Positions 38,609 through 60,647 of a stretch of 64,000 nt of DNA are shown one piece after another. The notes under the pieces were generated by a model that had not been told where the DNA came from, did no database searches, and was given only the letters and a program-made list of their open reading frames with translations. A program made the translations under genes and the position numbers. How positions within the stretch are numbered: position 1 is the stretch's first letter; each line of letters starts with the position of its first letter. Origin of the DNA: a bacterium HR15 (lineage in GTDB: Bacteria > Armatimonadota > Fimbriimonadia > Fimbriimonadales > GBS-DC); contig BEHR01000011.1 of assembly GCA_002898555.1 (NCBI GenBank), forward strand, positions 1,229-65,228. The letters run 5' to 3'.

Positions 38609-38657
38609 CAGAATTTTTTCTCTGGTGTACCCATGCGGGTTGGAGAAGAAAATTCTG
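38609..38657. repeat. degenerate copy (copy 1) of the nested palindromic intergenic repeat family
   Basis: cagaattttttctctggtgtaccc...gggttggagaagaaaattctg; the arms are imperfectly complementary. Confidence 0.6.
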
Positions 38658-44600: not shown

Positions 44601-44635
44601 ACTGGTCTCCCTTCATCTGCATTAGCAGCTGGTGA
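41615..44635 (+). CDS. exported TPR-repeat protein with C-terminal CHAT (caspase-like) protease domain
   Basis: Signal MRKYLVIGFLLMVSMRITGQA. About 12 TPRs (WHNLGVA, LHNLGTAY...). CHAT catalytic dyad context LHLATHGYF and VVLSACESARG. Confidence 0.85.
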   Translation: MRKYLVIGFLLMVSMRITGQAQTRAHPEVDALIRKALEARQQDRWQDALSYYQQAVERARTLNDRAGEASAWHNLGVAQILMSRPQDALNSLERALPIWREIGNRMGEANTLHNLGTAYANLGRAREALNTYQQALQLRQQLGHQAGVALTLQGIGSVYYALRELPTAQRYFEQALALYRELGNKQGEAETLRYLGNILYVSGQWQKALAVYENALALFRETNDSEGEATTLAGMGALFLDMGQPELALGYYQQTLELHQKGGKRREVIAAQLGIGHIYATMGEMEQAKKAYEQALALSREANDKRAEAAALIALATVETRLQTSRPAQASEGTVEGVSRAESLYRQAILVTQATGDQLGQANALQQLGTHYAILNRAEEAIRCFEKSLALYREAGDRRGEMIALSNLGAVYAARGEKTKAADYYQQAVNLAEAMREALGSLAEGKLAFQENRHALYARYISLLLSLNRLEEAFAVAQKAKARALTDLMSEGRVNLASHLPPEEREQERLLRYRLDRATQSFLAVRADPDADPALVAQWRETVQQAEREWQAFMDSLSARYPALTRQQGIRPVTLEQIAQSLPSDAALLEYLLLQPSAQAEKSYLLLFCLTNEGGKPRLSAHLTPLGDKPLAERTESFVLTCAVPNAPYKEEARAMYRLLIGPVEARIAGKKRLIICPDSTLWDVPFQALWSDKGFLLEQYELTYAPSATVAMLLRELRSVPNRPRPTRELLLVANPQFGMLTLASANENRPLTAGSRPLTTGARPLTTGSRPLTTGARPLTTGARPLTTGARPLTTGARPLTTGARDITGEYLAEVGIRVTPLPGTEREAQQIAALFPEATLLTKAEAQEATLKSIMGQYRYLHLATHGYFSDVAPLQSGVLLAEPPADASEDGILTARELMELPLSAEMVVLSACESARGRARPGEGAIGMVWALTVSGIPTQVLSQWKVSDESTALLMTRYYQELKAGRSPASALREAALAVKQDTRFQHPYYWSPFICISSW
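43865..44032 (+). repeat. eight tandem 21-nt coding repeats (RPLTTGA heptads) inside the CHAT protein
   Basis: Units start at 43865, 43886, 43907, 43928, 43949, 43970, 43991 and 44012. The peptide is conserved while third codon positions vary. Confidence 0.9.
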
Positions 44636-44789
44636 AATTTTTTCTCTGGGGTACTCAGCGAAGTGGGTCAGAGAAAAAATTTCAGGGGAAATTTTTTCTC
44701 TGGGGTACTCCAAAATTTTCTTCTCCGGGGTACCCAGATGGGTCGGAAAAGAAAATTTTGCTCGAAGCGGGTCAGAGAAAACATTTCAG
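44634..44789. repeat. compound copy (copy 3) of the nested palindromic repeat family
   Basis: A short hairpin (aaattttttctctggggtactc / gggtcagagaaaaaattt) is followed by a full two-level nested unit. The element overlaps the CHAT gene stop codon. Confidence 0.85.
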
Positions 44790-47583: not shown

Positions 47584-47653
47584 GCGAGTATAACACGCAT
47601 TCTCGCCTCAAAAGCCCCTTGCCCGTGGCAACTCTCCACGCCCTCGCGGTGGT

Positions 47654-50053
47654 TTATTGACCCCCGCCCGAAGCGCCGTTAATTGCCCATTGCCCCCCTG
47701 AAGGTATGCTGGCTATCCACTTTAGCGAGTCCTCAACAAGGGCATACTCACTCCATATCCCCCCTTTTTGTTCCTTCCGCCTCTCAACGGAAGGTGGTAA
47801 TTGTGTCATGGCAATTGCCACAAACTCGAGCCCTTCGGATTCCAGCATAAGATGCATTTGCGAACTTCTCCTTCCATCCAGCCGTTCCAGAGCCTCGTGC
47901 AACGGGGGAGAGCGGCGTTTTGGATAGAGCATGGATTTCCCACGCAGATCATCCCATCCGAGCAGAGGCTCACGCTTGCCATTTGCTGTATCACACTGGT
48001 ATACCTGCACCCAACAAGGTTGGTTTGCAAATACGGTAAGGATGATATTTTTATCTCTTAAAGGAACAATTTTTACATAAACCTTAAGTTTCCCACCTTG
48101 CTCGAAAAGCGGAAGTGCATTTAAGCTATTCAACAAAGCAAGCCAGTGTCTAATTCGCTCGCTCCGGTCGTCGGATTGGTTATCAGGAGGGTGAGGAGTG
48201 GGCGTGGGAGGAGGGCTGGAGGAGCTTGTCTTAAGGGGTTTCAGCAGCGCATCTATTCTGAGTTGTCCTCCTGCTCGAACTGACCGGTGTGTCTCATAGT
48301 TTTCATAACCATCCAATTTGAGTAAAATGGCGACCTCTTTCTTTCCGGAGGGCAACTCATGGAAGCCCTCATAGGGTGTCACGCCCACTGCCTGACCATC
48401 CAAGTAAACAGTAGCTCCAGGGGGCTTGCTGGATACTGATAGGCTGTATTCAGGTCGATATGGTACTGGTCTCCCCAGTTTCACTGGTGGTGGAGGTAGA
48501 CCCGATCTCACCTTGGCACGCCCGGAACTCTGATGACCACGAATATCGGAGCGTGCAATAATTTCTAAGGTTGCCTCACTGCCCTTTTCCACTTGTCCCG
48601 TCAAGTCAAAGGATACTATAGGCTGTGTTGGATGTCCTCCCGAAAGGGAAACCTTTTTAGGTCCCTCCTTACAGGGCGCTCCATTGATTCTGGCTTCAAC
48701 CGTAACCTCGGTATCTTCTTTTGGCCATCCTGCAGGTAAATGCACAGGAACCTCAAGCCTTTCTCTGCGTGGAATCGTGACAATGACCAGCGGAGGAACC
48801 ACTCCTGGTTCCGCTGGGTCTACCATCCAGTTGGGGTCTACCTGAAGCTGCTCTAAGTCATAGGGCTTTAATTTTGCGGACACATGCCCCGTTTGATCTC
48901 GTTTTGGGTCGGGTTCTATCTTAAGACTGAGGGGCAGGGCGGTCCACAAAAATCGTAAACCCCTTTTTTCCCACGGCCATCGCTTGTAGAATTCTACGCC
49001 CGTGCGTGTCCCATCAGTGTAGAGGCGATACAAACATGGATATGGGCGCTTAATACCTTTGGTATCGGTTATCTCTACTGTAACCTTTAAATCACGCGGC
49101 ATCAGTCCAGGAGGCAATTGTCCCTCCGGTAAGCCTTCGAAATGCAGGCGTATACGTGCCTCAGGGCGATAAATAGGGGGGAAACCAAATAGAATCCCTA
49201 TAAGTAGCATTAGAACCACACCCGCAATTATCCAATCTGGCCACCAAGTTTTTAGAAAAGGCATAGGCACTATATGAATATGTCGCTCCATTTGACGCCG
49301 AATGCGCTCGCCATTGGCACGCACGGTTGCCTCCACTACGGGCAGCACACGCAAAGGCTCTTGCAAGCGTTGCTCCAGTGGCATTCGGCATACAACGCTC
49401 TGCCGCTGCCATCCATCTAGCCTCCCCATGTCCAGCACTTGCTCCCCACCGTCATCTAAGGGGAGCGGCTTGCCTTTATTATCTAGAATGTTCAGTCGAA
49501 GTTGAGCGTCGACAGGCAAATAGCTGTGATTTGTAACAGAAACCTCTATTCGCACTGTTCGATGCCATGGACGAGCTAATACAATTTTCGGATGGACATC
49601 TATCTTAATCGATTGAGCATTGACCGGTGGCACGAGCTGATACTCTTTGAGGAAATAAATCTCTCCTTGCCCTGTAGTATCGGGGATCCAATATTCCGTT
49701 ACAACGATCTCGAAGGGGCAAGGGGTAGTGCGTGGATGTTCGGGATCACTTACCAAGAGAAGAGTGAAACCACGACTCTCGTTGCTGCCCAACTCGATCA
49801 ATTCATCAGTGCTTACTACTTCGAGGTTGGAGTAAAGTGAGTATTCAGTAGGGTATAGATTCGTAACAACGACTTGATACCATCGTGGATAGTTTGTGCT
49901 ATTGGAAATAGAAAACTCGATACACTGCCCTGGCAGAACTATATACTCGCTTGACTCCTCCACAGCAAGCGAGCCATGCCGCGCCTCACCTTCTGGTGAT
50001 GGTGGTCTTAGAGTTTGATGTTCCCGAACAACCCACTGCGCTTTCCCGAACAT
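47654..50053 (-). CDS. single-pass membrane protein (799 aa): beta-rich cytoplasmic N-domain, one TM, PEGA domain, P/S/T linker, DUF4384-like C-terminus
   Basis: TM WWPDWIIAGVVLMLLIGILFGF. PEGA-like SSKPPGATVYLDGQAVGVTPYEG...LKLDGYENYE. Linker SSSSPPPTPTPHPP. Last gene of the low-GC operon. Confidence 0.7.
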   Translation of the reverse strand: MFGKAQWVVREHQTLRPPSPEGEARHGSLAVEESSEYIVLPGQCIEFSISNSTNYPRWYQVVVTNLYPTEYSLYSNLEVVSTDELIELGSNESRGFTLLLVSDPEHPRTTPCPFEIVVTEYWIPDTTGQGEIYFLKEYQLVPPVNAQSIKIDVHPKIVLARPWHRTVRIEVSVTNHSYLPVDAQLRLNILDNKGKPLPLDDGGEQVLDMGRLDGWQRQSVVCRMPLEQRLQEPLRVLPVVEATVRANGERIRRQMERHIHIVPMPFLKTWWPDWIIAGVVLMLLIGILFGFPPIYRPEARIRLHFEGLPEGQLPPGLMPRDLKVTVEITDTKGIKRPYPCLYRLYTDGTRTGVEFYKRWPWEKRGLRFLWTALPLSLKIEPDPKRDQTGHVSAKLKPYDLEQLQVDPNWMVDPAEPGVVPPLVIVTIPRRERLEVPVHLPAGWPKEDTEVTVEARINGAPCKEGPKKVSLSGGHPTQPIVSFDLTGQVEKGSEATLEIIARSDIRGHQSSGRAKVRSGLPPPPVKLGRPVPYRPEYSLSVSSKPPGATVYLDGQAVGVTPYEGFHELPSGKKEVAILLKLDGYENYETHRSVRAGGQLRIDALLKPLKTSSSSPPPTPTPHPPDNQSDDRSERIRHWLALLNSLNALPLFEQGGKLKVYVKIVPLRDKNIILTVFANQPCWVQVYQCDTANGKREPLLGWDDLRGKSMLYPKRRSPPLHEALERLDGRRSSQMHLMLESEGLEFVAIAMTQLPPSVERRKEQKGGIWSEYALVEDSLKWIASIPSGGQWAINGASGGGQ

Positions 50054-50111
50054 GGCTTATCCCCAAAGATATAGGTTATCATACCCTAAAGATATCTTCC
50101 ACCAATTGCGC

Positions 50112-50591
50112 TCAGGGCTGCAACACAACGGGATAGTATTGTTTATTCCCACGCGTCCCTCTCAACATTTGCTCGATAATTATCTTGCTGGCTGACGGTG
50201 TGAGATTGTTTTCGGCGGGAAATCTTTCTTTCAGCCATTGCATAAATTGTTTCGTCTCCATCCAAGTGACCCGTATCTGCGTATCATTACCGGATAGTCG
50301 ACGATCACGGCTAAAAGTCAGTTCCATAGTCGTACCCACGGGGCGTGTGAGTTGACAGCCAGTGCCGGTTGCCACAGGTTCCCACGGCTGAGAGCCAACT
50401 TGAACAAGATAGGCTTTTATAGGAGCGCCTTCTGGCGTGAATGTATGAAAGATTAAAGTAATATCTGCTGGATGGGGGGAAGGGGATTTTGGTACTTGCA
50501 AGCCCAGCCAAAGCGCAACGCCGAATACAAACAGCCAAACCACCAAAAACCACCATGAAAAGCAGCGTAGGGGGGCAGGCAAACGGTTCAT
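50112..50591 (-). CDS. N-terminally anchored small membrane protein (159 aa), unknown function
   Basis: ATG preceded by GGAGGG. TM FSWWFLVVWLFVFGVALWLGL. Lies 15 nt downstream of the preceding gene. Confidence 0.65.
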   Translation of the reverse strand: MNRLPAPLRCFSWWFLVVWLFVFGVALWLGLQVPKSPSPHPADITLIFHTFTPEGAPIKAYLVQVGSQPWEPVATGTGCQLTRPVGTTMELTFSRDRRLSGNDTQIRVTWMETKQFMQWLKERFPAENNLTPSASKIIIEQMLRGTRGNKQYYPVVLQP

Positions 50592-50606
50592 CCAAACCCT
50601 CCTTTT

Positions 50607-51710
50607 CTACTTAGCTTTGCCCACACAGTTCGGACACCGACCAGGGTCAACCTGACCTGGGCGAACTGTGTAGTACGCATTGCAGGAACATTTCCGAATT
50701 ATCAAAGAACCCTGAGAGGAGACCGGCGTCACGGGTATGAACCCAGGACTGGGTTCAGGTCTTTCGTAAGGCTGTTCTGGTTCACGCAACTCTCCATAGA
50801 GAGGAATAAGAGCTTCCATGGCTTTTTGTACGTGGTCGAGTGCGTCCCATATTTGCAACTGGGCTTCGGCACGATGCTTAATGTAGCTAATAGCGTTTTC
50901 GATTTGATCCTTTGCAGGTACCCAGCTGGCGAGCGGTGGTTGTAGGTTGGCTAATGGTAAAATCAGTTGAAAGAGAGAGACCAGCATCTCGGTCAGGCGA
51001 TTAAGCCAATCCCGTAGGTAGATCTGCCAGTCACTTATTATTGAAGCAGGGGCAAGCGCGGCAGCCATGTTCGCTGCGATTAGATGAGAAAAACCGCACC
51101 CAGACCTCGCATATTGCCCCAAAATTTGCTGTGAAGCTTGGGCAGTTTGTAGAATGGTCTTCACCTTATTGACCAGAAGCGGATGGCTATTCAAATAGAC
51201 CGACTCCGGGATATACTGATTGTCCACAACAAATCGCGCTCCCTCCTTGCGCATCTGCCCAATCTGGAGCCTGTCGTAAGCGTTCGCACTGGGTTCTGTT
51301 GTCAAGGCATAGGCCCAGCGAAGGGAACGAGCTTCCAGCAAGACAGTACTCTGAGCAGTTGTGGTTGGTACCGATTCCTTACCCCGAACCTCCAGGTAAA
51401 TCGGTACAATCGACTCTCGGTGCTGATCATTACTTCCCCTCAAGGGAGCCGGGCGGTTTGACTCGTTTACCTCTATTAGGTAACCTTGAGGACTTATTGC
51501 CCGGCATGCTTGCAGTACAATCTCATAATCGGAAGGCGACCCAGAAACGATTAGATCACCCTCTCGCATTGCGAGGACTCCCCGAGGATATGTGCTGGAA
51601 AGAACCCAGCGTATTAGCTCCTCCATATAGGCTGTCTCGCCAAATAGATGGTCAGCGTGCAGAAGCTGCACGCTGCTCCAGTCGACCGATGTAAGCTTGA
51701 ACCATGTCAA
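50607..51710 (-). CDS. TssK-like (baseplate shoulder-domain-like) protein with C-terminal CxC...CxxC zinc ribbon
   Basis: TTG start preceded by AGGAGGTG. The N-terminus VDWSSVQLLHADHLFGETAY...YPRGVLAM...LQACRAISPQGYLIEV parallels the TssK pattern W.EG.FL.PQHFQ...WGV...RFPDGTLID. C-terminus KCSCNAYYTVRPGQVDPGRCPNC. Family call is a by-eye inference. Confidence 0.5.
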   Translation of the reverse strand: MTWFKLTSVDWSSVQLLHADHLFGETAYMEELIRWVLSSTYPRGVLAMREGDLIVSGSPSDYEIVLQACRAISPQGYLIEVNESNRPAPLRGSNDQHRESIVPIYLEVRGKESVPTTTAQSTVLLEARSLRWAYALTTEPSANAYDRLQIGQMRKEGARFVVDNQYIPESVYLNSHPLLVNKVKTILQTAQASQQILGQYARSGCGFSHLIAANMAAALAPASIISDWQIYLRDWLNRLTEMLVSLFQLILPLANLQPPLASWVPAKDQIENAISYIKHRAEAQLQIWDALDHVQKAMEALIPLYGELREPEQPYERPEPSPGFIPVTPVSSQGSLIIRKCSCNAYYTVRPGQVDPGRCPNCVGKAK

Positions 51711-51774
51711 AGCATGTCACCTCCTGCATTCCACACTGCTGTGTTCTCTTTATCAGGCGTATCCCGATCATCGG

Positions 51775-53442
51775 TTATTGTACCCCCTCCAATATATCGC
51801 CCATTATGGGCGAACCACCGGCCAAGCGTGCCAAAGGCGTTTCAGCCCACTCTGCTCCATAACCCTGCGCCTCTTGGGCAAGATAGGCGGTTTCGCCAAG
51901 GATCGCCCAGTCCACTAACCATCTATAGCATATCGGCAAATGCACAGGAACAAAAAGACATGCCAAAACTTCGAGTTTCTTTTCAATCACCTCGATCCAC
52001 TCTGACGGCTGAGTGCGATCCATCGGGATATAAACTACCACTTGCGGTGAATGCAGCAGAGGGATCATGCTAACAAAAAGTGTCTGCCCGACTTGGGCAA
52101 GCGTTGTACCTAACCTACTGGGAGCAGGAGCCAGAGGTTCAATACGCACCTGGATATCGCGATGCACCAGCAGGCGTAATGCAGTCTGAAAAAGAGCGAA
52201 CCAGTCTATCAGGTGTCGCCGAAGAAGAATAAGCATTTCCAACACCACTTTTTCTTCAGGTAGAAAAAAGTTCATCGATTCCTGCTTGATACCCAAAAAA
52301 GCGTCATTATGCCACCAACTTCGCATCAGGTGTATTAAAGCGCCGCTCAGATTAAGCCCTTCGAAGATGCTACATTGTGAGGGATAAAAAGGGATATATT
52401 CTGGCAGGTAGCGGCGTACAAGTGCAAGTACCTCGTCGGGCGTCAGGTCCTCAGTACGCCCTGCCTCATACTGTTGACGAATAGCTTTGTAGACCTCCTG
52501 GACAGCTGGGTCTTGTGCTGTCCATAAAGTTTGCTCTGCTTGAGTCGGATCTCCTTGTTCATTATCTCTCGTGATGCTATCCCCCTGGCGTGGTATCCCT
52601 CTGCTTCCTTTGCCGTAGTTGAGAAATGATAATGGACGATGTGGGTAGAGATGAAGCCATTGCACCACATCCTCAACGCGGGATTGAGCACCCAAAGTCA
52701 CCGGGATGTGTCTTCCTTCGGGTTCAAAGGGAAAGAAGAATTCACAGCCCCCAAGCAGATCGGTCATGGCAACGAATAAAAAAGCGTTGGTAAAGATAAG
52801 CTCGGCAAATTCCTGTGCTAAGCGCGAATATAGAGATTCTTCTGTAAGATCTTCAGTTTCATAAAAATAAATATCTTCTTTGGATAGTTCCATAACATGT
52901 CCGTGTCGAATGAAAAGCAAGCGATCATGTGGTCGCTCGTTAGGAGGCGATGATTCGCCAAGATCGGGATACTGCTCATAGAGCTGTCGCATAAGGCACT
53001 CGACGGGAGTCTCCGCTGTGGAGAAATCCGCATGTCCTGTATGGCGATGTATATACTGCTCCCGATACCAACTTAGCATGGAAACACCAAAAGGCTTGTC
53101 TCCTTTAAGCCGTGCCAACGCTACTTCTGTGGGAGGCATGCCAAGCATGACAAGAGAGATAAAAGGAGCTAAGCGATTGTCCACCCGAACATTGACCCCT
53201 AAACGAATACGTAGATCTTTTAAACTCTGCTCAACTAAACTCTGCTTAACAAAATTGTCCACGCTCTCGCACAAGAGGTCACGATAGGGCAGGATTTCAC
53301 GGTGTGCTGGATGTCCGATAACAGGCAGGAGACGCACACCCGTCGCAGGTACCCCCATATCTGTAAGCACCTGCACCACATGCGCAAGCGAGGCGGGACC
53401 ATTCCACGAGGAGAAAGACGGTATGCGAAAGACTTTAATCAT
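51775..53442 (-). CDS. hypothetical cytoplasmic protein (555 aa), no family recognised
   Basis: ATG preceded by AAGGTGA. No TM or signal. Sits between the TssF-like and TssK-like genes. Confidence 0.6.
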   Translation of the reverse strand: MIKVFRIPSFSSWNGPASLAHVVQVLTDMGVPATGVRLLPVIGHPAHREILPYRDLLCESVDNFVKQSLVEQSLKDLRIRLGVNVRVDNRLAPFISLVMLGMPPTEVALARLKGDKPFGVSMLSWYREQYIHRHTGHADFSTAETPVECLMRQLYEQYPDLGESSPPNERPHDRLLFIRHGHVMELSKEDIYFYETEDLTEESLYSRLAQEFAELIFTNAFLFVAMTDLLGGCEFFFPFEPEGRHIPVTLGAQSRVEDVVQWLHLYPHRPLSFLNYGKGSRGIPRQGDSITRDNEQGDPTQAEQTLWTAQDPAVQEVYKAIRQQYEAGRTEDLTPDEVLALVRRYLPEYIPFYPSQCSIFEGLNLSGALIHLMRSWWHNDAFLGIKQESMNFFLPEEKVVLEMLILLRRHLIDWFALFQTALRLLVHRDIQVRIEPLAPAPSRLGTTLAQVGQTLFVSMIPLLHSPQVVVYIPMDRTQPSEWIEVIEKKLEVLACLFVPVHLPICYRWLVDWAILGETAYLAQEAQGYGAEWAETPLARLAGGSPIMGDILEGVQ

Positions 53443-53464
53443 TTTTTCACCTTCTTATAAATGA

Positions 53465-55090
53465 TCAAATCCTGGTCAGGCATCCCTCCACTTGATACCA
53501 CCCAATCATGAAATATTGGGCAATGATCGAGGCGGCATAACGCGTTGCGTCCTCCAGTAAGAAACGAGGTACATCCATGCGTCTGGGGTAAAAAACAAGG
53601 CGCATCTTGGGCATAATGGCACACCGCGAACGGGCCAGATAACCCGCACGCATCTCTAATAAGATCGTGTCACCAATCAAAGATGGATAGAGATAAGTCT
53701 CCCACACAGTTCGCTCTTCCCATGGAGCAGCTGCCACATCCAGTTGGATTGCAGTTTGATCAATATCAAACCACAATCGGCATGAAGATAAATGAGACAA
53801 TATTTCTTTTATATCACCCTCTGTCAGTAATGTAGGGCGAAAAATAGTGTGATACCAATAGTAGCGTGCGGCGTTATTATCAGGCTGACTCATTAGCAAA
53901 CTCATGCCACCTACTGCAGGCAAAGGTGTGCGGAAACGCTGCCCACCAGGACGAATGAGGTATTCAGGATGCAAGCGTCCAGGAACAGGATTTTCACCTA
54001 AGCAGGCATAATAGACCTTGATCTCGGAAACCGTTTGATCGCATATTATATCAACATCATATGGACAGCTCTCAGGCGATGATGTTCCCTCAAAGGTAGT
54101 TGCATGGGTACGAACGAAGCGTACGCGATGAATAACATCACCTGTGCGAGCAATAGCGGCAAAAAAGTTGGTTATCCCCGCAAAGCTAACTTTGTATGCA
54201 TCCCCCACGGCATGGAGGGTTGCTACCACGGGGTGATGGAGCACTCCCATCTGTGCCACAGGAATCGCGTTAATCACAAGTGGAGGCTGCACACTGTTAG
54301 AGGCCACGCGATCAGCGAGGGTTTGATCAATCAGTGCCGCAAGACGAATGAATTCATCGCTAATCCCGAGCCATTCCCACTCAGCGGAATCCGTTATGGA
54401 TGAGGAAGGAGACGGTTGATAAAAACGAAGAAACTTTCGAGAATAGGGATGGAAAGGGGGTAGCCAAGCCGCCAGATGCCATTGGGAAAGGCGGGCTACC
54501 CCCATCTCACGCTCAAATTCCAGATACCCCGTATAACGTTCCACCTTAACTACCTCAAACGATCGCCCAGGATACTGAATCGCCCACCTCGCATTCGCTA
54601 ATAAAGCGACGAGTGGCTCATCTCCCCAGACAAAGGCGAGTAATCCATTCTCCGAGAAGAGCGTTGCAATGTCCGATTCGCGGCTCTCGCACCGGAGGAT
54701 TAACACTAAAGCAACTTGCCCCTCCGTTGACCGCGTGAGTGTCCACTCGACAAGTTCTAAAGGCAGTGTCCAGCCATATCCACAGGGTGTCCAAAAAGTT
54801 CCTGTAAACGGATCCGTAAAGGTTGTTCCCATCGTAATCTCGCGATAGCGTGGTTCCTGGGGCACAGCAATTGTTTGCGCGGGAAAATGCCACTCCCCTG
54901 AAGGGAAAAACTGTTCCATAAAGCGAAGCAGCGTTCTTTGCTCTGCCTCAGCAATCTGTTCAGCAATCGCTGTCTTCCAAGCAGCGAGCATTCCTAAAAA
55001 AGGAGCATATTTGCTTATTTCTGACTCCACTCGCTGACGCACTGTTGGATCCATCTGATCCAATATCTCTTTCTCGTCGTATCTGTTCAC
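53465..55090 (-). CDS. TssF-like (gp6-like baseplate wedge) protein
   Basis: GTG start preceded by GGAGG. DPTVRQRVES resembles TssF DPHVERLIES, and RTLLRFMEQFFPSGEWHFPAQTIAVPQEP resembles TssF LLGQLFPDYHAPIPSMSIVQFE. The size is compatible (541 aa). By-eye inference. Confidence 0.45.
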   Translation of the reverse strand: MNRYDEKEILDQMDPTVRQRVESEISKYAPFLGMLAAWKTAIAEQIAEAEQRTLLRFMEQFFPSGEWHFPAQTIAVPQEPRYREITMGTTFTDPFTGTFWTPCGYGWTLPLELVEWTLTRSTEGQVALVLILRCESRESDIATLFSENGLLAFVWGDEPLVALLANARWAIQYPGRSFEVVKVERYTGYLEFEREMGVARLSQWHLAAWLPPFHPYSRKFLRFYQPSPSSSITDSAEWEWLGISDEFIRLAALIDQTLADRVASNSVQPPLVINAIPVAQMGVLHHPVVATLHAVGDAYKVSFAGITNFFAAIARTGDVIHRVRFVRTHATTFEGTSSPESCPYDVDIICDQTVSEIKVYYACLGENPVPGRLHPEYLIRPGGQRFRTPLPAVGGMSLLMSQPDNNAARYYWYHTIFRPTLLTEGDIKEILSHLSSCRLWFDIDQTAIQLDVAAAPWEERTVWETYLYPSLIGDTILLEMRAGYLARSRCAIMPKMRLVFYPRRMDVPRFLLEDATRYAASIIAQYFMIGWYQVEGCLTRI

Positions 55091-55192
55091 CGTCTGCCTC
55101 CGTTAGCGAATAATCTTTAGAAGCTTTGCCCACCAGATTCCGACTTTGAGTCGCCTATTTCCCATTATACCTGCGAATACTCTATTCCCAGT

Positions 55193-55650
55193 CTAAGTGG
55201 GGGTGAGTAGGGTCTGCAGCCAATCACGGAGTTGTCTCGCTTGTGTTCCTATGCCACCTGCTGTGCATCCAAGGGTTGTGCCTGGGGGAACCCAAAGGGT
55301 TGTCGGTTGGAGCACCTCCCGATAGAGTCGTCCCATTGCGAGAAAGATTTCACCATAGGGTATGGTTTCCATACGCCTTTGGAGGGCTGCTATCACCCGA
55401 GGCGACAGCTGTTGCGCACGCGCTCGATCCATCTTGCGGTTATAGTACGGGATGGGTGTGGCAGCTTCTATTAGACCAAATTCTGACGAGAGCAGAAGAA
55501 TGTCCACGGACCGAACTTGCGCTGGCGATGCTTGCTGCAACCATCGACGCACGATGCGATAGAATACCCATCACAGCGCTCTATCGCGGGTAGCAGACCC
55601 GCGTCCACGCGCTTCTGTGCGGAGCATGCCAGTATCAGCAGATGCTTCAT
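55193..55650 (-). pseudogene. DUF6884-like gene interrupted by a frameshift near 55567-55569
   Basis: ATG 55650 preceded by GGAGG. MKHLLILACSAQKR...LPAIERCDG (frame A) continues sensibly only in another frame as (V)FYRIVRRWLQQ...DILLLSSEFGLIEAATPIPYYNRKM. A G3 run lies at the junction. Confidence 0.55.
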
Positions 55651-55728
55651 TGCAATACCTCCTCGAGCGCAACACGAGCAGTTATTTCGGGAGCGAATGG
55701 TCCGCCACCGAGTAGACTTTGACAATGG

Positions 55729-56613
55729 CTAACGAACAATCTCACAGGACCATGGGACGGTGATTTCCGTACGACCTGCCTTTAATATAAGCCTGCCCTG
55801 AAACTTACCAGTTGCTTTGGGGGCAGGAATGAACTCAACACCCAGGATAAGGGTATTTTGCTGTCGATCAATGGAGCGTACCAGAAACTGTCCAGCCATC
55901 GTATGAGGATTGACCAGCTGCACTTTCGTATATTGATCGGCAATATAATTAGAGTCAAAAATAATTTTTAGATATCTAATAACCCGTTTTTCTTTTGAAA
56001 TGATTCCCAACCCCAGTGATGAAGGCAAGGTTTGTACAGGGCTGCATGGCTCTATATTGACATTGATTGTTTTTATTATACTATCTTTAAGTTTTACTAT
56101 AATTTTTCCATATCTAAAAGTTTTATATTTAATTACTTTGATTTTCAAAGCTCTCGATTTTCGATCGATACTCAAAATTATTCCTGGTATATTCGATAAA
56201 ATTCTTATATCGTTCAAATCAATTGAATTGCAGAAATTAAAAAAGAGTATATTTTTATGATCACATTTTATGTGAAGATAATTGGGCGCATTGAGCAAGC
56301 AATTTATCTGTTTACCGGAAAGTTTAGCAACCAAGATAGCTTTCTTTTGATTATCAGTTTCAACTTCGACCCAGAAGGTGTCCTGAATGGGCTTTTCCTG
56401 TATTCCCTCCCAATGTGGTGGTAAATCGAGGCGCGCTTTTACATGGAGCGTTCCACCAGGAGGTACGATTCGAGGAGCATAGCTATAAGTTGCCTGCGTA
56501 TTTGGTAAAGGTGCCACATGGCCTGGGTTCATAGTCACATACAGAGCCAGGGGCTGGACGGCATCGTGGATACCGGACACGGTTCGACACAAACTCCTCA
56601 CAAATCGTGCCAC
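55729..56613 (-). CDS. beta-rich (Ig-like/DUF1573-like?) protein with an extremely AT-rich central coding segment
   Basis: ORF of 294 aa. An alternative start at ATG 56532 is possible. It overlaps the upstream Cys-rich ORF by 50-131 nt. C-terminus GKFQGRLILKAGRTEITVPWSCEIV. Confidence 0.5.
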   Translation of the reverse strand: MARFVRSLCRTVSGIHDAVQPLALYVTMNPGHVAPLPNTQATYSYAPRIVPPGGTLHVKARLDLPPHWEGIQEKPIQDTFWVEVETDNQKKAILVAKLSGKQINCLLNAPNYLHIKCDHKNILFFNFCNSIDLNDIRILSNIPGIILSIDRKSRALKIKVIKYKTFRYGKIIVKLKDSIIKTINVNIEPCSPVQTLPSSLGLGIISKEKRVIRYLKIIFDSNYIADQYTKVQLVNPHTMAGQFLVRSIDRQQNTLILGVEFIPAPKATGKFQGRLILKAGRTEITVPWSCEIVR

Positions 56614-56899
56614 AGAAAGTAACTCTACCTATTCTAATACATCCAGAAAAGCACCGGCAAGGGATATCTTGGCAGCTCGCTATAAGCCAAGGCGTGCATT
56701 TCTGATCGTTGACTCGGATAGGATTTGGCTTAGTGGCACATGGTTTGACAGACGCAACAACTACTTCATCGGGCGCTGTTGCCAGGCCACAAGCGTCTTT
56801 CTCAGAGGATATACCTACGCCAATTGGCACCCAACTGAGCAGGATGCCGACTACAACCCTCAAGCCAATGCTCCAGCACGACAAACCGATTTTGCGCAT
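56483..56899 (-). CDS. small exported/anchored Cys-rich protein (139 aa)
   Basis: ATG 56899 preceded by GGAGGTGG. Hydrophobic N-terminus LSCWSIGLRVVVGILLSWVPIGVG. At least 14 Cys residues. Confidence 0.55.
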   Translation of the reverse strand: MRKIGLSCWSIGLRVVVGILLSWVPIGVGISSEKDACGLATAPDEVVVASVKPCATKPNPIRVNDQKCTPWLIASCQDIPCRCFSGCIRIGRVTFCGTICEEFVSNRVRYPRCRPAPGSVCDYEPRPCGTFTKYAGNL

Positions 56900-57007
56900 C
56901 TTTTGTCCACCTCCATTTAAAAATAACGCTCCCATCGTTCCTTTGGGGACATCATAGTACCATCTCCGAGTGGATGCTTACTTTTTTCTGCCAATGCTCC
57001 CGCATAA

Positions 57008-57544
57008 CTACGAGCAACTCTCTGTCTGTAGAGGATAGACCACCGCCGAAATTACCCCCCCACTTTGTACCCAGTTCTGGAGTTTCTTGATGGCTCGCTG
57101 ACAAGTCTTCTTGACATTCTCTTTAGAGTGGCCATCGCCTATCTGTCGCGCGATGACGGAAAACGATAGGCCTTCCAAGTAATGAAGTATCACAATCAAT
57201 CGCTCTCGCTCCGAAAGCCGAGCAAGTGCTTGCTCCAGCATCAAACGCTGCTCTACCTGCTCATAGCCCATCTCGTCCATGGCGTATTCTGTACCCAGCT
57301 CCTCCAGCGACACCGTGGCAGGTTTGCGTTTGCGACGGCGCAGATAGTCGTTTTTTACACTTTGACAGACACGGTGAAGGTAGGCACGTGTAACTGCTTG
57401 CTGGCGTTGCTGACAGCGCAATAGGCGCAGCAGGACATCTTGGATCATGTCCTCTATGCAGTTAGCATCCCGTTCATGTTGCAGGAACCAACGCCGTGCT
57501 TCATTATACCATTCGCTTTCTTTAAGCAAGTCACGCTCCTCCAT
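57008..57544 (-). CDS. ECF-type sigma-70 family RNA polymerase sigma factor
   Basis: Region 2 (IQDVLLRLLRC...YLHRVCQSVKNDYLRRR) and region 4 (LSERERLIVILHYLEGLSFSVIARQIG...VKKTCQRAIKKL). The ORF extension to 57820 is just translation of the palindromic repeat. Confidence 0.8.
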   Translation of the reverse strand: MEERDLLKESEWYNEARRWFLQHERDANCIEDMIQDVLLRLLRCQQRQQAVTRAYLHRVCQSVKNDYLRRRKRKPATVSLEELGTEYAMDEMGYEQVEQRLMLEQALARLSERERLIVILHYLEGLSFSVIARQIGDGHSKENVKKTCQRAIKKLQNWVQSGGVISAVVYPLQTESCS

Positions 57545-57671
57545 GGCGCGCTCCTCCTCAAAAAGAGGATTCGCCTTGCTCGAGGCGATTCCTGCATGGT
57601 GTGTGGTTGCTTCATGCCATAATAAAAGGGGCGTGATGGGATGAGACTGCCCGCAACGCCGCCCGATGCTG

Positions 57672-57826
57672 CAGAATTTGCTTCTTCGGGGTAGCCCAAA
57701 ATTTTTTCTCTGGGGTACTCCAAAATTTTCTTCTCCGGGGTACCCATCTGGGTCGGAGAAGAAAATTTTGAGCGCAGCGGGGTCAGAGAAAAAATTTTGC
57801 CGTCTGACTCGGAGAAGCAAATTCTG
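57672..57826. repeat. full three-level nested palindromic repeat (copy 4) between the ECF sigma gene and ppdK
   Basis: Perfect stems 57672-57685/57813-57826 (14 bp), 57697-57712/57784-57799 (16 bp) and 57721-57737/57754-57770 (17 bp). A GGGTACCC palindrome sits at the apex. Confidence 0.9.
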
Positions 57827-57841
57827 GAGGAGGTTGGAAGA

Positions 57842-60514
57842 ATGAAGCGAGTCTATCTGTTTGAGGAAGGGCGCGCGGATATGCGCGACCTCTTAGGCGG
57901 GAAGGGCGCGAATCTGGCGGAGATGACCCATATCGGTCTGCCCGTGCCGCCGGGCTTTACGATCACGACCGATGTGTGCCGCGACTATATGCGGCGCGGG
58001 CGGCTGCCAGACGACCTGATGGACGAAGTGCGCGAAAAGCTCCAGGTCGTGGAGCAGCGCGTGGGCAAACGCTTCGGCGACCCCGAGAACCCGCTGCTTG
58101 TCTCCGTGCGCTCCGGCGCCAAGTTCTCTATGCCGGGCATGATGGATACTATCCTCAATCTCGGGTTGAACGATCGCACCGCCCAGGCGATGATCCGCCT
58201 GACCCAGAACCCGCGCTTCGTCTACGATGCCTACCGCCGATTTATCATGATGTTCAGCGATGTCGTCATGGACATCCCCAAGAAACTGTTCGAAGAACGG
58301 TTCGCTGAGCTCAAAGCGCGACTCGGTGTCACGCAGGATACCGAAGTGCCTGCCGACGCGCTCAAAACGCTCGTGGAAGAGTTCAAACAGATCGTGCATG
58401 AGCATGGCAAGGAGTTCCCCCAGGACCCATCTCTACAATTAGAGATGGCGATCGAGGCGGTATTCCGTTCTTGGAATAATGAGCGTGCAGTCATCTATCG
58501 CGAGCGGGAAAAAATCCCCCATGACCTGGGCACGGCGTGCAATGTGCAAGCGATGGTGTTCGGCAACATGGGCGACGACTCGGGCACTGGCGTCGCCTTC
58601 ACGCGTAACCCCGCTACCGGCGAGAAGGTGCTGTATGGCGAGTTCCTGCCGAATGCACAGGGTGAGGATGTGGTCGCGGGCATCCGAACGCCACTGCCGT
58701 TGGACGCCTTGCGCGACATGATGCCCGAAGTCTATCGGCAATTTTTGGAGATTGCAGACCGACTGGAGCGACACTATCGCGACATGATGGATCTGGAGTT
58801 CACCATCGAGCGAGGCACCCTCTGGATGCTGCAATGTCGCGTGGGCAAGCGCACCGGGCGTGCCGCCGTCAAAATCGCTGTCGATATGGTGCATGAAGGG
58901 CTCATTGGGCGCGACGAGGCAGTCCTACGCGTCCAGCCCAGCCATCTGGACCAAGTGCTGCATCCCCACCTGGACGAACGCGCATTGGCAACGGGCGAGT
59001 ACCCACTCATTGCGCAGGGACTAAGTGCCTCGCCAGGCGCCGCCAGCGGACGCGCTGTTTTTGACGCTAAACGCGCCATCGAAAGAGGCAAAGCGGAACC
59101 TGTGATCCTCGTGCGCCCTGAAACAAATCCCGACGATGTAGGCGGGATGCTCGCCTCAAAAGGCATCCTGACCGAGCGAGGCGGAATGACCAGCCACGCC
59201 GCCGTCGTTGCGCGCGGCTTTGGCATCCCATGTGTGGCTGGCTGTGAAGCTATCCATGTAGACGAGGAGAACGCTCTCTTCACAGTGGAGGTGAACGGGG
59301 AAACCCTCACCGTGCGCGAGGGCGATTATATCAGCATCGACGGCAGCACAGGCAATGTCTACTTAGGGGCAGTGCCCACACAAGAGCCTGAAATCAGCCC
59401 CGAAATGATGACCCTACTCCACTGGGCAGACCAGTTCCGTCGCCTGCGCGTACGCGCCAACGCCGACACCCCCAAAGACGCTGCGAAAGCACTCGCATTT
59501 GGCGCAGAAGGGATCGGACTGGCACGCACCGAGCATATGTTCTTTGGGGCGGAGCGGCTGCCCATCGTGCAGGAGATGATCCTCGCCAAGACCGCCAAAG
59601 AGCGGCGGGAGGCGCTCTCACGCCTGCTTCCCTTCCAGCGCGAGGACTTCCTCGGTCTCTTTGAGGTGATGCGCGGGCTGCCTGTCACCATCCGCCTGAT
59701 TGACCCCCCTCTGCATGAGTTCCTGCCCCGTTATGAGGACCTCCTGCGCGAAGTGCTCCTCTTGGAGTTGACCGCGCCCGATTCACCCCAATTAGCCGAG
59801 AAACGGCGTCTATTGCAGCGCGTGGAGGAGCTGCGCGAGGCGAACCCGATGCTGGGGCTGCGTGGCGTGCGCCTCTCCATCCTCTACCCGGAGATTGTGG
59901 AGATGCAAGTCACGGCGATTATGGAAGCCGCTGCGGAAGCCCAGCGCCGCGGCTATGACCCCCATGTGGAGATAATGATCCCTCTCGTGGGGCATGTGAA
60001 CGAGCTCAAGGTGGTGCGCGAGAATTTGGAGCGCGTCGCCAAGGAGGTCATGGCACACGAGGGCGTGCAAATCGATTACAAATTCGGCACGATGATCGAG
60101 ATTCCGCGCGCCGCGCTCACAGCAGGCGAAATCGCGCAAGAGGCCCAATTCTTCTCCTTCGGCACGAACGACTTGACGCAGACCGTGTTCGGCTTTAGCC
60201 GCGATGACGCCGAGGGGAAGTTCCTCGCCTACTATGTGGAGCAGAAAATCTTGCCCGAAAATCCCTTTGTCACCCTGGATCGGGCAGGGGTTGGCAGATT
60301 GATTGAGATGGCAGTGCGAGCAGGACGCGCTGCACGACGCGAGTTGAAAATCGGCATCTGTGGTGAGCATGGCGGAGACCCTGCCTCCATCGAATTCTGC
60401 CATGAGTTGGAGCTGGACTATGTGAGCTGTTCTCCCTATCGCGTGCCGATTGCCCGTTTGGCAGCCGCGCAAGCCGCCCTGCGCCACCGCGTCGCCGTGA
60501 CGGTCGATAAATAA
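57842..60514 (+). CDS. ppdK: pyruvate, phosphate dikinase
   Basis: MKRVYLFEEG...LGGKGANLAEM N-terminus. Phosphohistidine region GGMTSHAAVVARG. C-terminal PEP-utilising motif SFGTNDLTQ...CGEHGGDP. ATG 57842 preceded by GGAGGAGG. Confidence 0.93.
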   Translation: MKRVYLFEEGRADMRDLLGGKGANLAEMTHIGLPVPPGFTITTDVCRDYMRRGRLPDDLMDEVREKLQVVEQRVGKRFGDPENPLLVSVRSGAKFSMPGMMDTILNLGLNDRTAQAMIRLTQNPRFVYDAYRRFIMMFSDVVMDIPKKLFEERFAELKARLGVTQDTEVPADALKTLVEEFKQIVHEHGKEFPQDPSLQLEMAIEAVFRSWNNERAVIYREREKIPHDLGTACNVQAMVFGNMGDDSGTGVAFTRNPATGEKVLYGEFLPNAQGEDVVAGIRTPLPLDALRDMMPEVYRQFLEIADRLERHYRDMMDLEFTIERGTLWMLQCRVGKRTGRAAVKIAVDMVHEGLIGRDEAVLRVQPSHLDQVLHPHLDERALATGEYPLIAQGLSASPGAASGRAVFDAKRAIERGKAEPVILVRPETNPDDVGGMLASKGILTERGGMTSHAAVVARGFGIPCVAGCEAIHVDEENALFTVEVNGETLTVREGDYISIDGSTGNVYLGAVPTQEPEISPEMMTLLHWADQFRRLRVRANADTPKDAAKALAFGAEGIGLARTEHMFFGAERLPIVQEMILAKTAKERREALSRLLPFQREDFLGLFEVMRGLPVTIRLIDPPLHEFLPRYEDLLREVLLLELTAPDSPQLAEKRRLLQRVEELREANPMLGLRGVRLSILYPEIVEMQVTAIMEAAAEAQRRGYDPHVEIMIPLVGHVNELKVVRENLERVAKEVMAHEGVQIDYKFGTMIEIPRAALTAGEIAQEAQFFSFGTNDLTQTVFGFSRDDAEGKFLAYYVEQKILPENPFVTLDRAGVGRLIEMAVRAGRAARRELKIGICGEHGGDPASIEFCHELELDYVSCSPYRVPIARLAAAQAALRHRVAVTVDK

Positions 60515-60520
60515 CACCCA

Positions 60521-60647
60521 TGAAATTTTTTCTTCGGGGTAGCCCAAAATTTTTTCTCTGGGGTACCCAAAATTTTCTTTTCCGGGGTACCCTGTTGGGT
60601 CGGAGAAGAAGATTTTGAGCGCGGCGAGGTCAGAGAAAAAATTTCAG
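60521..60647. repeat. nested palindromic repeat (copy 5), 7 nt after the ppdK stop
   Basis: Three tandem left units (…TTTTTTCTTCGGGGTAGCC, CAAAATTTTTTCTCTGGGGTACC, CAAAATTTTCTTTTCCGGGGTACCC) and two right units (GGGTCGGAGAAGAAGATTTTG, GGTCAGAGAAAAAATTTCAG). Confidence 0.9.

What the first reader, a model, noticed from the sequence alone, without database searches (positions are those of the whole stretch)
53465..55090. TssF-like (gp6-like) wedge protein encoded upstream of the TssK-like gene, separated by the 555-aa gene
Seen: DPTVRQRVES at aa 24-33 and RTLLRFMEQFFPSGEWHFPAQTIAVPQEP at aa 52-80. These resemble the two most conserved N-terminal TssF blocks as I recall them from Vibrio VasA (DPHVERLIES; LLGQLFPDYHAPIPSMSIVQFE). 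The length (541 aa) is in the TssF range. The first ~25 residues of canonical TssF (LL-YY-EL-LR) are missing. Inference only, from memory of family consensus.
Basis: inference. Interest (0 to 1): 0.6.

Follow-up and report, generated by a model that had tools for sequence, protein, structure and literature searches.

The report
Divergent TssF-like baseplate wedge protein
This gene encodes a protein whose predicted 3D shape, but not its sequence, matches TssF, the wedge subunit of the type VI secretion "baseplate". It belongs to a gene set apparently confined to the little-studied phylum Armatimonadota that looks like an undescribed, very divergent version of that toxin-injecting machine.

Summary
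The ORF is real: 53465-55090 on the minus strand, 541 aa, GTG start with a GGAGG ribosome-binding site. It is HRbin15_01128 of "bacterium HR15".

Every sequence-level test for TssF failed. These were Pfam and NCBIfam on all 23 family members, PDB profile searches, hhalign against nine TssFs, and a profile search of 1.84 billion proteins.

A confident AlphaFold2 model (pLDDT 83.7, pTM 0.83) does match TssF in the TssK-TssF-TssG cryo-EM structure (6N38 H/I, Foldseek E 2.8e-13, probability 1.0). Phage, eCIS and AFP gp6/J-type wedge proteins match far more weakly.

The gene opens a tight five-gene operon inside a 10-kb low-GC island. The other genes are a 555-aa protein in the TssG position (unproven), a 367-aa protein that matches TssK HMMs, and two single-pass membrane proteins.

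In about 25 related loci, nearly all labelled Armatimonadota, the block sits beside VgrG, and several loci also carry PAAR, DUF4123, toxin or immunity genes. Most also have a ~147-aa protein with weak tube-family hits and an unassigned ~845-aa protein. HR15 encodes the ~845-aa protein on another contig.

This is a new, sequence-undetectable variant of T6SS baseplate proteins.

The parts
53465..55090 (-). 541-aa protein with a TssF/gp6-class fold (HRbin15_01128). It is the first gene of the operon.
   Evidence: ORF and start. 100% identical to the NCBI protein. AF2 model pLDDT 83.7. Foldseek top hits are TssF 6N38_H/I at E 2.8e-13. No Pfam, NCBIfam, PDB-sequence or hhalign match.
51775..53442 (-). 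555-aa protein in the TssG/gp7 position, between the TssF-like and TssK-like genes. Its identity is unproven.
   Evidence: It follows the 541-like gene in 21 loci. The AF2 model is poor (pLDDT 48.6). Only weak hints exist. hhalign against TssG pairs the conserved PAPSRLGTxLAQxG motif with the TssG C-terminal region (E 0.015 and 0.13). Foldseek gave a Streptomyces CIS baseplate chain at E 0.55 and TssG 6GIY_C at E 1.6.
50607..51710 (-). 367-aa TssK-like protein. The N-terminal region (aa 9-255) matches TssK models. The C-terminus is not TssK-like and ends in a CxC...CxxC zinc-ribbon-like motif.
   Evidence: PF05936 E 1.2e-5, 24.8 bits against a cutoff of 23.4. TIGR03353 E 2.7e-12 over aa 9-255, below its cutoff. 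Six of 14 family members hit PF05936 (best 1.6e-9), and it is the only family hit. The Cys motif occurs only in the window and L007.
50112..50591 (-). 159-aa protein with one N-terminal transmembrane helix (aa 15-33). Putative membrane-anchor subunit.
   Evidence: Hydropathy scan. L007 has a homologue, and other loci have a ~160-aa N-terminal-TM protein (c9) in the same position.
47654..50053 (-). 799-aa single-pass membrane protein. It has a conserved N-terminal ~270-aa domain, a TM helix at 274-292, and a variable C-terminal region with a PEGA domain. Putative membrane anchor.
   Evidence: PEGA PF08308 E 4e-12. TM helix. The N-terminal ~320 aa are conserved in related loci.
55193..55552 (-). 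119-aa ORF with weak DUF6884 / phrog_5935 matches. It is inside the island and on the same strand. Whether it belongs to the system is uncertain.
   Evidence: PF21818 E 5.5e-6, below cutoff. phrog_5935 E 4.2e-6. It is not conserved in related loci.
55729..56613 (-). 294-aa ORF of unknown function that contains a 29.5% GC patch. It is inside the island. Whether it belongs to the system is uncertain.
   Evidence: No family hits. Composition. Not conserved in related loci.
57008..57820 (-). ECF-type sigma-70 factor at the upstream edge of the island. It is a possible regulator of the operon, by inference only. The true start is probably downstream of the listed TTG.
   Evidence: TIGR02937 E 1.4e-19; Sigma70_r2 and r4. 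The sigma domain begins near aa 100.
47600..57850 (.). About 10-kb low-GC island (~0.50 against ~0.59-0.60 in the flanks) that holds the whole gene set.
   Evidence: Composition profiles. No tRNA lies next to it.

Best explanation
The 541-aa ORF encodes a very divergent member of the TssF/gp6 structural class, the main wedge subunit of contractile-tail-like baseplates. It is the first gene of a five-gene operon: 541, 555, 367, 159 and 799 aa.

By analogy with the solved (TssK3)2-(TssF)2-TssG wedge, I infer the following. Two copies of the 541-aa protein and one copy of the 555-aa protein form the wedge core. The TssK-like 367-aa protein docks on that core. The two single-pass membrane proteins (159 aa, and 799 aa with a PEGA domain) tether the assembly to the cytoplasmic membrane, replacing TssJ/L/M.

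The wedge would polymerise around a VgrG spike. A second module supplies the spike: c4 (~850 aa, function unknown, a candidate sheath), c5 (~147 aa, probable tube protein) and VgrG. In most related genomes, nearly all of them Armatimonadota, this module is adjacent to the wedge genes. In HR15 it is on another contig. The spike carries PAAR and polymorphic toxins.

Shown here: the TssF fold, the TssK HMM matches, the conserved synteny, and the association with VgrG, PAAR and effector genes. Inferred: the stoichiometry, the TssG role of the 555-aa protein, the membrane anchoring, and firing by contraction.
For: - Fold: the AF2 model has pLDDT 83.7 and pTM 0.83. Foldseek against the PDB gives TssF 6N38_H/I at E 2.8e-13 and 1.6e-12, probability 1.0, over ~600 aligned columns. 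Chain identity was verified. The next hits are gp6/J-class wedge proteins (P1, AlgoCIS, AFP, Mu). Viral baseplate wedge/J proteins are much weaker, best 6e-6.
- Partner: the TssK-like protein is supported by Pfam above its gathering score and by TIGR03353 at E 2.7e-12, which is below that model's own cutoff. Six of 14 family members hit it.
- Synteny: the 541, 555, 367 and 799 families co-occur in order in ~20 loci.
- T6SS cargo context in relatives: VgrG, PAAR and DUF4123, and Tsi6, DcrB and toxin-deaminase/WHH.
- Tube candidate: c5 gives convergent weak hits to three tube families. These are gp19 (8 of 15 members), TssD/Hcp (6 of 15, spanning most of the model) and TIGR02241.
- HR15 itself encodes a c4 homologue, HRbin15_02381. 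In another split genome, c4-c5-VgrG form a separate locus.
- Operon spacing is 15-64 nt.
Against: - There is no sequence-level link to TssF. Pfam and NCBIfam gave nothing at E <= 10 for any member. The PDB profile search gave nothing. hhalign gave probability 0.3%. A profile search of 1.84 billion representatives returned only 40 proteins, of which the nine checked have no TssF domain.
- TM-score is only 0.42 and rmsd 11 A, so the domain arrangement differs from TssF or is mis-modelled.
- The 555-aa protein could not be modelled (pLDDT 48.6) and has no significant match to TssG.
- No sheath, TssE, ClpV, TssA, TssM or TssL was recognised in the window or in any related locus.
- c4 has no detectable relative in Pfam, NCBIfam or PDB sequences.
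- The window itself contains no VgrG, c4 or c5.
Confidence: 0.75

Rival explanations
1. The operon is a remnant or variant of a phage tail, tailocin or extracellular contractile injection system baseplate (gp6/gpJ class), not a cell-anchored T6SS-like machine.
For: The fold class is shared with phage and eCIS wedge proteins: P1, AlgoCIS, AFP and Mu, and BFVD baseplate wedge/J proteins. The genes lie in a low-GC island that looks horizontally acquired. The neighbouring 119-aa ORF hits a PHROG family. There is no ClpV or TssM.
Against: TssF matches 9-10 orders of magnitude better than the best solved phage or eCIS wedge protein, and about 7 orders better than the best predicted viral structure. 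The partner matches TssK HMMs, and on my own knowledge TssK is a T6SS-type baseplate component that eCIS and myophage baseplates lack. Two conserved membrane proteins are part of the block. tblastn found no match in 50,697 phage records. None of the ~27 loci shows capsid, terminase, tail-fibre or tape-measure genes. The cargo context is of T6SS type: DUF4123, PAAR and Tsi6.
Confidence: 0.1
2. The proteins form a baseplate-and-spike platform that works without a contractile sheath. For example, it could be a membrane-anchored VgrG/PAAR-toxin display or export device driven by some other mechanism.
For: No sheath family was detected in the 64-kb window or in about 27 related loci with up to +/-10 kb of flank. 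c4, the only sizeable unassigned conserved protein, has no Pfam hit and no sequence match to any solved sheath in the PDB.
Against: TssF itself was invisible to the same sequence methods, so failure to recognise a sheath says little. The order c4 then c5 matches the usual sheath-then-tube order, and c5 weakly resembles tube proteins. On my own knowledge, no system with TssF/TssK/VgrG-type parts is known to lack a sheath.
Confidence: 0.1
3. The resemblance to TssF is an artefact of modelling, or a convergent beta-rich multidomain architecture, and the protein does something unrelated.
For: All sequence tests were negative. TM-score is only 0.42 with rmsd 11 A. The model rests on a 23-sequence alignment.
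Against: The Foldseek probability is 1.0 over ~600 columns with both TssF chains, and every other match with probability >= 0.4 is a baseplate or tail-assembly entry, most of them from gp6/J-type baseplates. An independent library gave the same class. The gene neighbourhood supplies TssK-like, VgrG, PAAR and DUF4123 genes independently of the model.
Confidence: 0.05

Closest known systems
TssF (ImpG/VasA; PF05947/TIGR03359), T6SS baseplate wedge subunit, solved in EAEC TssK-TssF-TssG (PDB 6N38, 6GIY)
   Same: It is the best structural match, aligned over essentially the whole length (E 2.8e-13, probability 1.0). The size is similar (541 aa against ~590-620 aa). The secondary-structure layout of the model (a long N-terminal helix, then beta-rich regions, then an alpha/beta C-terminal region) resembles the TssF architecture of an N-terminal helix and a C-terminal domain described in PMC6300606. 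It is encoded with a TssK-like gene, and with VgrG in related loci.
   Different: No detectable sequence similarity by HMM, profile-profile or PDB searches. The ~25 N-terminal residues of canonical TssF may be missing. There is no tssE upstream. The downstream gene is 555 aa and is not recognisable as TssG. The family is tiny (40 representatives among 1.84 billion), and its genome-resolved members are nearly all labelled Armatimonadota.
Phage and eCIS gp6/gpJ-class wedge proteins (T4 gp6, P2 gpJ, Mu gp47, P1 baseplate, Afp11, AlgoCIS)
   Same: They share the fold class. Hits were P1 9AY5_0 at 5e-4, 9VZK_T at 9e-4, 7AEB_G, 6RAO_I and 9KI1_O, and BFVD 'baseplate wedge / J-like' proteins.
   Different: The scores are much weaker than for TssF. 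There was no Pfam match of any kind at E <= 10, so none to a phage baseplate family. No phage genes lie nearby, and there was no tblastn match in the phage collection. The partner protein is of TssK type.
Divergent T6SS subtypes ii (Francisella), iii (Bacteroidota) and iv (Amoebophilus)
   Same: These are lineage-restricted T6SS variants that lack canonical membrane-complex genes or have baseplate roles that were established structurally (abstracts of PMC9600919 and PMC10781749). On my own knowledge, some of their core parts are unrecognisable by sequence. They are a precedent for what is proposed here.
   Different: On my own knowledge, those subtypes all have recognisable sheath and tube genes. 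Here only TssK and VgrG are recognisable, and weakly. The membrane proteins (159 aa and 799 aa with PEGA; c7, c9) matched none of the Pfam or NCBIfam models searched, other than the PEGA domain.

Membership tests
TssF (PF05947 / TIGR03359) | A significant match to the family's sequence models | tested here: not met
   No Pfam or NCBIfam hit at E <= 1 for the window protein, and none at E <= 10 for any of the 23 family members. hhalign against nine TssFs gave probability 0.3%. The PDB profile search found nothing.
TssF (PF05947 / TIGR03359) | The TssF three-dimensional fold (N-terminal helix, central beta domains, C-terminal alpha/beta 'triangle' domain) | tested here: met
   AF2 model with pLDDT 83.7 and pTM 0.83. 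Foldseek: 6N38_H/I at E 2.8e-13 and 1.6e-12, probability 1.0, TM 0.42; 6GIY_A at E 0.017. Chains verified as TssF.
TssF (PF05947 / TIGR03359) | Encoded next to tssG (downstream) and tssE (upstream) | tested here: inconclusive
   A conserved 555-aa gene always follows, but only weak, non-significant links to TssG were found. No TssE-like gene was recognised. The c5-versus-TssE comparison was negative.
TssF (PF05947 / TIGR03359) | Co-occurrence with TssK and VgrG | tested here: met
   The TssK-like gene is two genes downstream in the window. VgrG is adjacent in 13 related loci, or lies in a second locus of the same assembly. The window itself has no VgrG.
TssF (PF05947 / TIGR03359) | Forms a (TssF)2-(TssG)1 heterotrimer that binds two TssK trimers | not testable with these tools
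   No multimer prediction or experiment was available. The stoichiometry is taken from PMC6300606.
Canonical T6SS (13 core genes) | Recognisable sheath TssB/C, tube Hcp, TssE, ClpV, TssA and TssJ/L/M | tested here: not met
   None was found in the window (phmmer with --max using E. coli core proteins) or among the precomputed Pfam calls for related loci. Only c5 gives sub-threshold tube hits.
Phage Baseplate_J / gp6 family | A match to phage baseplate J/gp6 models, or a phage genomic context | tested here: not met
   No Pfam or PHROG match. No tblastn match in phage or plasmid records. The structural matches are much weaker than those to TssF.
TssK (PF05936 / TIGR03353), for the 367-aa neighbour | A match of the N-terminal shoulder/neck region to the family model | tested here: met
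   PF05936 at 24.8 bits against a gathering score of 23.4. TIGR03353 at E 2.7e-12 over aa 9-255, though below its 100-bit equivalog cutoff. Six of 14 relatives hit PF05936, best 1.6e-9. The region after aa ~255 is not covered by either TssK model.

The most novel reading that the evidence does not exclude
The gene set is a fifth, undescribed class of T6SS-like machine, seen so far almost only in Armatimonadota, in which the conserved ~850-aa protein c4 is not a contractile sheath. In that case a TssF/TssG/TssK-type baseplate with a VgrG-PAAR spike and a tube-like protein would be anchored by novel single-pass membrane proteins and would deliver toxins without sheath contraction.
Probability: 0.12. 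Interest if true: 0.9.

Novelty: new variant of a known kind. Interest (0 to 1): 0.62.

Why it matters
T6SS biology rests largely on Proteobacteria and Bacteroidota. The three recognised non-canonical subtypes each revealed new ways to anchor or assemble the machine.

Here a phylum with almost no cultured members carries a compact gene set of about nine genes. In HR15 it is split into a five-gene baseplate-and-membrane module plus a c4-c5-VgrG module. Only TssK and VgrG are detectable by sequence. TssF is detectable only by fold. The sheath, TssE, TssA, ClpV and the membrane complex are either missing or replaced.

If this reading is confirmed, it would:
- extend the known phylogenetic and structural range of T6SS-like weapons;
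- provide a minimal system for asking which parts are truly essential;
- supply new protein families (the 541, 555, c4, c7, c9 and 799 families) for annotation pipelines, which currently label all of them 'hypothetical'.

Tried and rejected
- Pfam, NCBIfam and PHROGs scans of the 541-aa protein and all 23 relatives gave no TssF or baseplate J match.
- PDB sequence-profile searches found nothing useful with A1 (541 family), A2 and A11 (555 family), A5 (c5), A6 (c4) or A10 (TssK-like).
- hhalign against reference alignments that I built from E. coli Sakai and eight plasmid T6SS clusters gave nothing significant. The pairs were 541 family vs TssF, 541 vs TssG, 555 family vs TssG, 555 vs TssF, c5 vs Hcp, c5 vs TssE, c4 vs TssC, and 541 vs 555.
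- The exhaustive profile search of 1.84 billion representatives recovered only the family itself (40 proteins). Nine of its more distant members have no Pfam domain.
- The AF2 model of the 555-aa protein was poor (pLDDT 48.6), and its Foldseek search gave no significant hit.
- The contig carrying the HR15 c4 homologue could not be retrieved.
- tblastn of the 541-aa protein against phage and plasmid collections gave no match.
- Promoter and terminator scans were at chance level.
- Literature searches for an Armatimonadota T6SS or CIS, a sheathless T6SS, or 'bacterium HR15' found nothing relevant.
- I rejected the prophage or tailocin reading for lack of any phage genes, and because of the TssK, membrane-protein and effector context.
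Full report
**1. The observation**

The reported coordinates hold an ORF of 541 codons on the minus strand, 53465-55090. It starts at GTG, and a GGAGG lies 6 nt upstream. It is 100% identical to 'hypothetical protein HRbin15_01128 [bacterium HR15]'. NCBI lists that organism only as an unclassified bacterium.

The first, DPTVRQRVES, is at aa 14-23, not 24-33. The gene order is as described: the 555-aa gene follows (51775-53442), then the TssK-like 367-aa gene (50607-51710).

**2. Is it TssF by sequence? No.**

- Pfam and NCBIfam gave no family at E <= 1.
- The protein has only a small family: 23 clusters at 30-62% identity, all ~530-620 aa, none carrying a TssF domain.
- Scanning every member against Pfam at E <= 10 again gave no TssF or baseplate family.
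- A profile of the family found nothing among PDB sequences.
- An exhaustive HMM search of 1.84 billion representatives returned only 40 proteins. Nine of the more distant ones were scanned against Pfam, and none has a TssF or other significant domain.
- I built a reference alignment of nine diverse TssFs from the E. coli Sakai T6SS cluster and eight plasmid clusters. hhalign of family against TssF gave probability 0.3%.
- Restricting the comparison to the N-termini gave P = 0.028.
- A similar pseudo-match to the same TssF block appears in the middle of the 555-aa neighbour.

The motif evidence is therefore no better than chance.

**3. Is it TssF by structure? Yes.**

AlphaFold2 on the 23-sequence alignment gave a confident model (mean pLDDT 83.7, pTM 0.83). 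It has a long N-terminal helix (aa 25-61), then beta-rich domains, then an alpha/beta C-terminal domain.

Foldseek against the PDB gave these hits:

| Target | E-value | Notes |
|---|---|---|
| 6N38_H, 6N38_I | 2.8e-13, 1.6e-12 | probability 1.00, ~600 aligned columns, TM 0.42 |
| Phage P1 baseplate chains 9AY5_0, 9VZK_T | 5e-4, 9e-4 | |
| AlgoCIS chain 7AEB_G | 5.8e-3 | |
| EAEC TssF 6GIY_A | 0.017 | |
| AFP chain 6RAO_I | 0.051 | |
| Phage Mu chain 9KI1_O | 0.27 | |

The 6N38 chains are TssF. The paper reports TssF residues 45-587 as modelled, and E. coli TssF matches the 6GIY/6GJ1/6N38 'TssF' sequence.

Against predicted viral structures the best hits are 'baseplate wedge / J-like' proteins, at far weaker scores (best 6e-6). 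The protein therefore belongs to the gp6/TssF structural class and is closest to TssF. The modest TM-score means the domain orientations differ or are uncertain.

**4. The surroundings**

The gene lies in a ~10-kb island of ~50% GC (about 47.6-57.85 kb) within ~59-60% GC DNA. On the minus strand the island holds, in order:

- an ECF sigma factor;
- a 294-aa ORF;
- a 119-aa ORF with a weak DUF6884 match;
- the tight operon 541-555-367-159-799, with gaps of 15-64 nt.

The 367-aa protein matches TssK models over its N-terminal ~255 residues. PF05936 scored 24.8 bits against a gathering score of 23.4, and TIGR03353 gave E 2.7e-12. Six of 14 relatives also hit PF05936, and no other family was hit. 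Its C-terminus is different and ends in a CxC...CxxC motif found only in the closest lineage.

The 159-aa protein has one N-terminal TM helix. The 799-aa protein has a TM helix at aa 274-292 and a PEGA domain.

The 555-aa protein could not be modelled (pLDDT 48.6). Its assignment as the TssG/gp7 equivalent rests on its position and on weak hints:

- hhalign pairs its conserved PAPSRLGTxLAQxG motif with the C-terminal region of TssG (E 0.015 and 0.13).
- Foldseek listed a Streptomyces CIS baseplate chain (E 0.55) and TssG 6GIY_C (E 1.6).

None of these is significant.

**5. Related loci**

I examined 27 loci from metagenomes and from species-representative genomes. Most of the 19 genome-derived loci are labelled Armatimonadota (Chthonomonadaceae, Armatimonadales, Capsulimonadaceae, Abditibacteriales). 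One is an unclassified MAG, and one is a MAG labelled Janthinobacterium that is probably misbinned.

The 541, 555, 367 and 799 families co-occur in that order in about 20 loci. The commonest arrangement is:

c7 (~215 aa, C-terminal TM) - c4 (~845 aa) - c5 (~147 aa) - 541 - 555 - 367 - c9 (~160 aa, N-terminal TM) - 799-like - VgrG

Effector and accessory genes often follow: DcrB, Tsi6, and toxin-deaminase/WHH. PAAR, DUF4123, PLD and caspase-like proteins occur in other loci.

The window and its closest relative L007 carry only the five-gene block. tblastn and phmmer found no c4, c5, c7, VgrG or canonical T6SS core gene in the 64-kb window.

HR15 does, however, encode a c4 homologue elsewhere (HRbin15_02381, 40% identity, on a 29.9-kb contig). 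In another genome with a split arrangement, c4-c5-VgrG form a separate locus (L038, from the same assembly as L017; also L036 and L037).

c5 gives convergent sub-threshold hits to three tube families:

- T4 gp19, in 8 of 15 members (best E 0.0087);
- TssD/Hcp, in 6 of 15 (E 0.022, covering aa 4-103);
- TIGR02241 (E 0.033).

c4 has no detectable relative.

**6. Interpretation**

The best-supported reading is a lineage-specific, very divergent T6SS-like apparatus. The window encodes its baseplate-wedge and membrane-anchor module: TssF-fold protein, putative TssG equivalent, TssK-like protein, and two single-pass membrane proteins. A second module, c4-c5-VgrG, supplies the spike, a probable tube and perhaps a sheath. 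I put this at 0.75.

Rival readings are:

- a phage or eCIS-derived baseplate (0.1);
- a baseplate and spike working without a sheath (0.1);
- a spurious fold match (0.05).

**7. Novelty**

No paper in the searched library describes a T6SS or CIS in Armatimonadota, or these families. None of the proteins other than the TssK-like one and VgrG is covered by the Pfam, NCBIfam, PHROGs or PDB-sequence searches run here.

Precedents exist in the divergent T6SS subtypes ii to iv. I therefore classify this as a new variant of a known kind, not as categorically new. Interest is moderate to high (0.62). The main open question is whether c4 is a sheath.

Noticed in passing
window 44642-44735, 57675-57745, 60523-60592 and 38618-38632: A 24-nt unit (about AAATTTTCTTCTCCGGGGTACCC) occurs as tandem triplets in several intergenic spots, always in the same orientation. 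There are 10 matches against 0.1 expected by chance. One array sits at the right edge of the low-GC island, between the ECF sigma gene and the pyruvate phosphate dikinase gene. It may be a REP-like dispersed element.
   Followed up: partly
window 55900-56299, inside ORF 55729-56613 (-): This patch is only 29.5% GC, within an island that is already low in GC. The 294-aa ORF is Lys/Ile/Asn-rich there and has no family match.
   Followed up: no
window 41615-44635 (+), repeat at 43893-44035: A 1006-aa ORF with repetitive, TPR-like sequence carries a 21-nt tandem repeat of about 7 copies that encodes RPLTTGA units. Caspase-like (Peptidase_C14) genes flank the homologous clusters in L001, L007 and L018, which may or may not be a coincidence.
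   Followed up: no
window 30901-34389 (-), repeat at 30909-31032: The 1162-aa ORF ends in a 33-nt tandem repeat of 3.8 copies that encodes LEGEAPAEPKS units.
   Followed up: no
related loci, e.g. L024:4099-4755 (c7) and L024:4874-7402 (c4): c7 is ~215 aa with a single C-terminal TM helix at about aa 184-206. As I recall, that is the size and tail-anchored topology of TssL, but no HMM supports the link. c4 (~845 aa) is highly conserved (68% mean column identity), soluble, and has no relative in Pfam, NCBIfam or PDB sequences.
   Followed up: partly
window 50607-51710 (-), C-terminal 30 aa: The TssK-like protein ends in a CSC...CPNC zinc-ribbon-like motif. The motif is shared only with the closest relative (L007). 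All other family members instead end in a basic tail.
   Followed up: partly
window 57008-57820 (-): The ECF sigma ORF as listed has a ~95-aa N-terminal extension before the sigma domain, and it overlaps the start of the divergent pyruvate phosphate dikinase gene (57797). The real start is probably an internal ATG.
   Followed up: no
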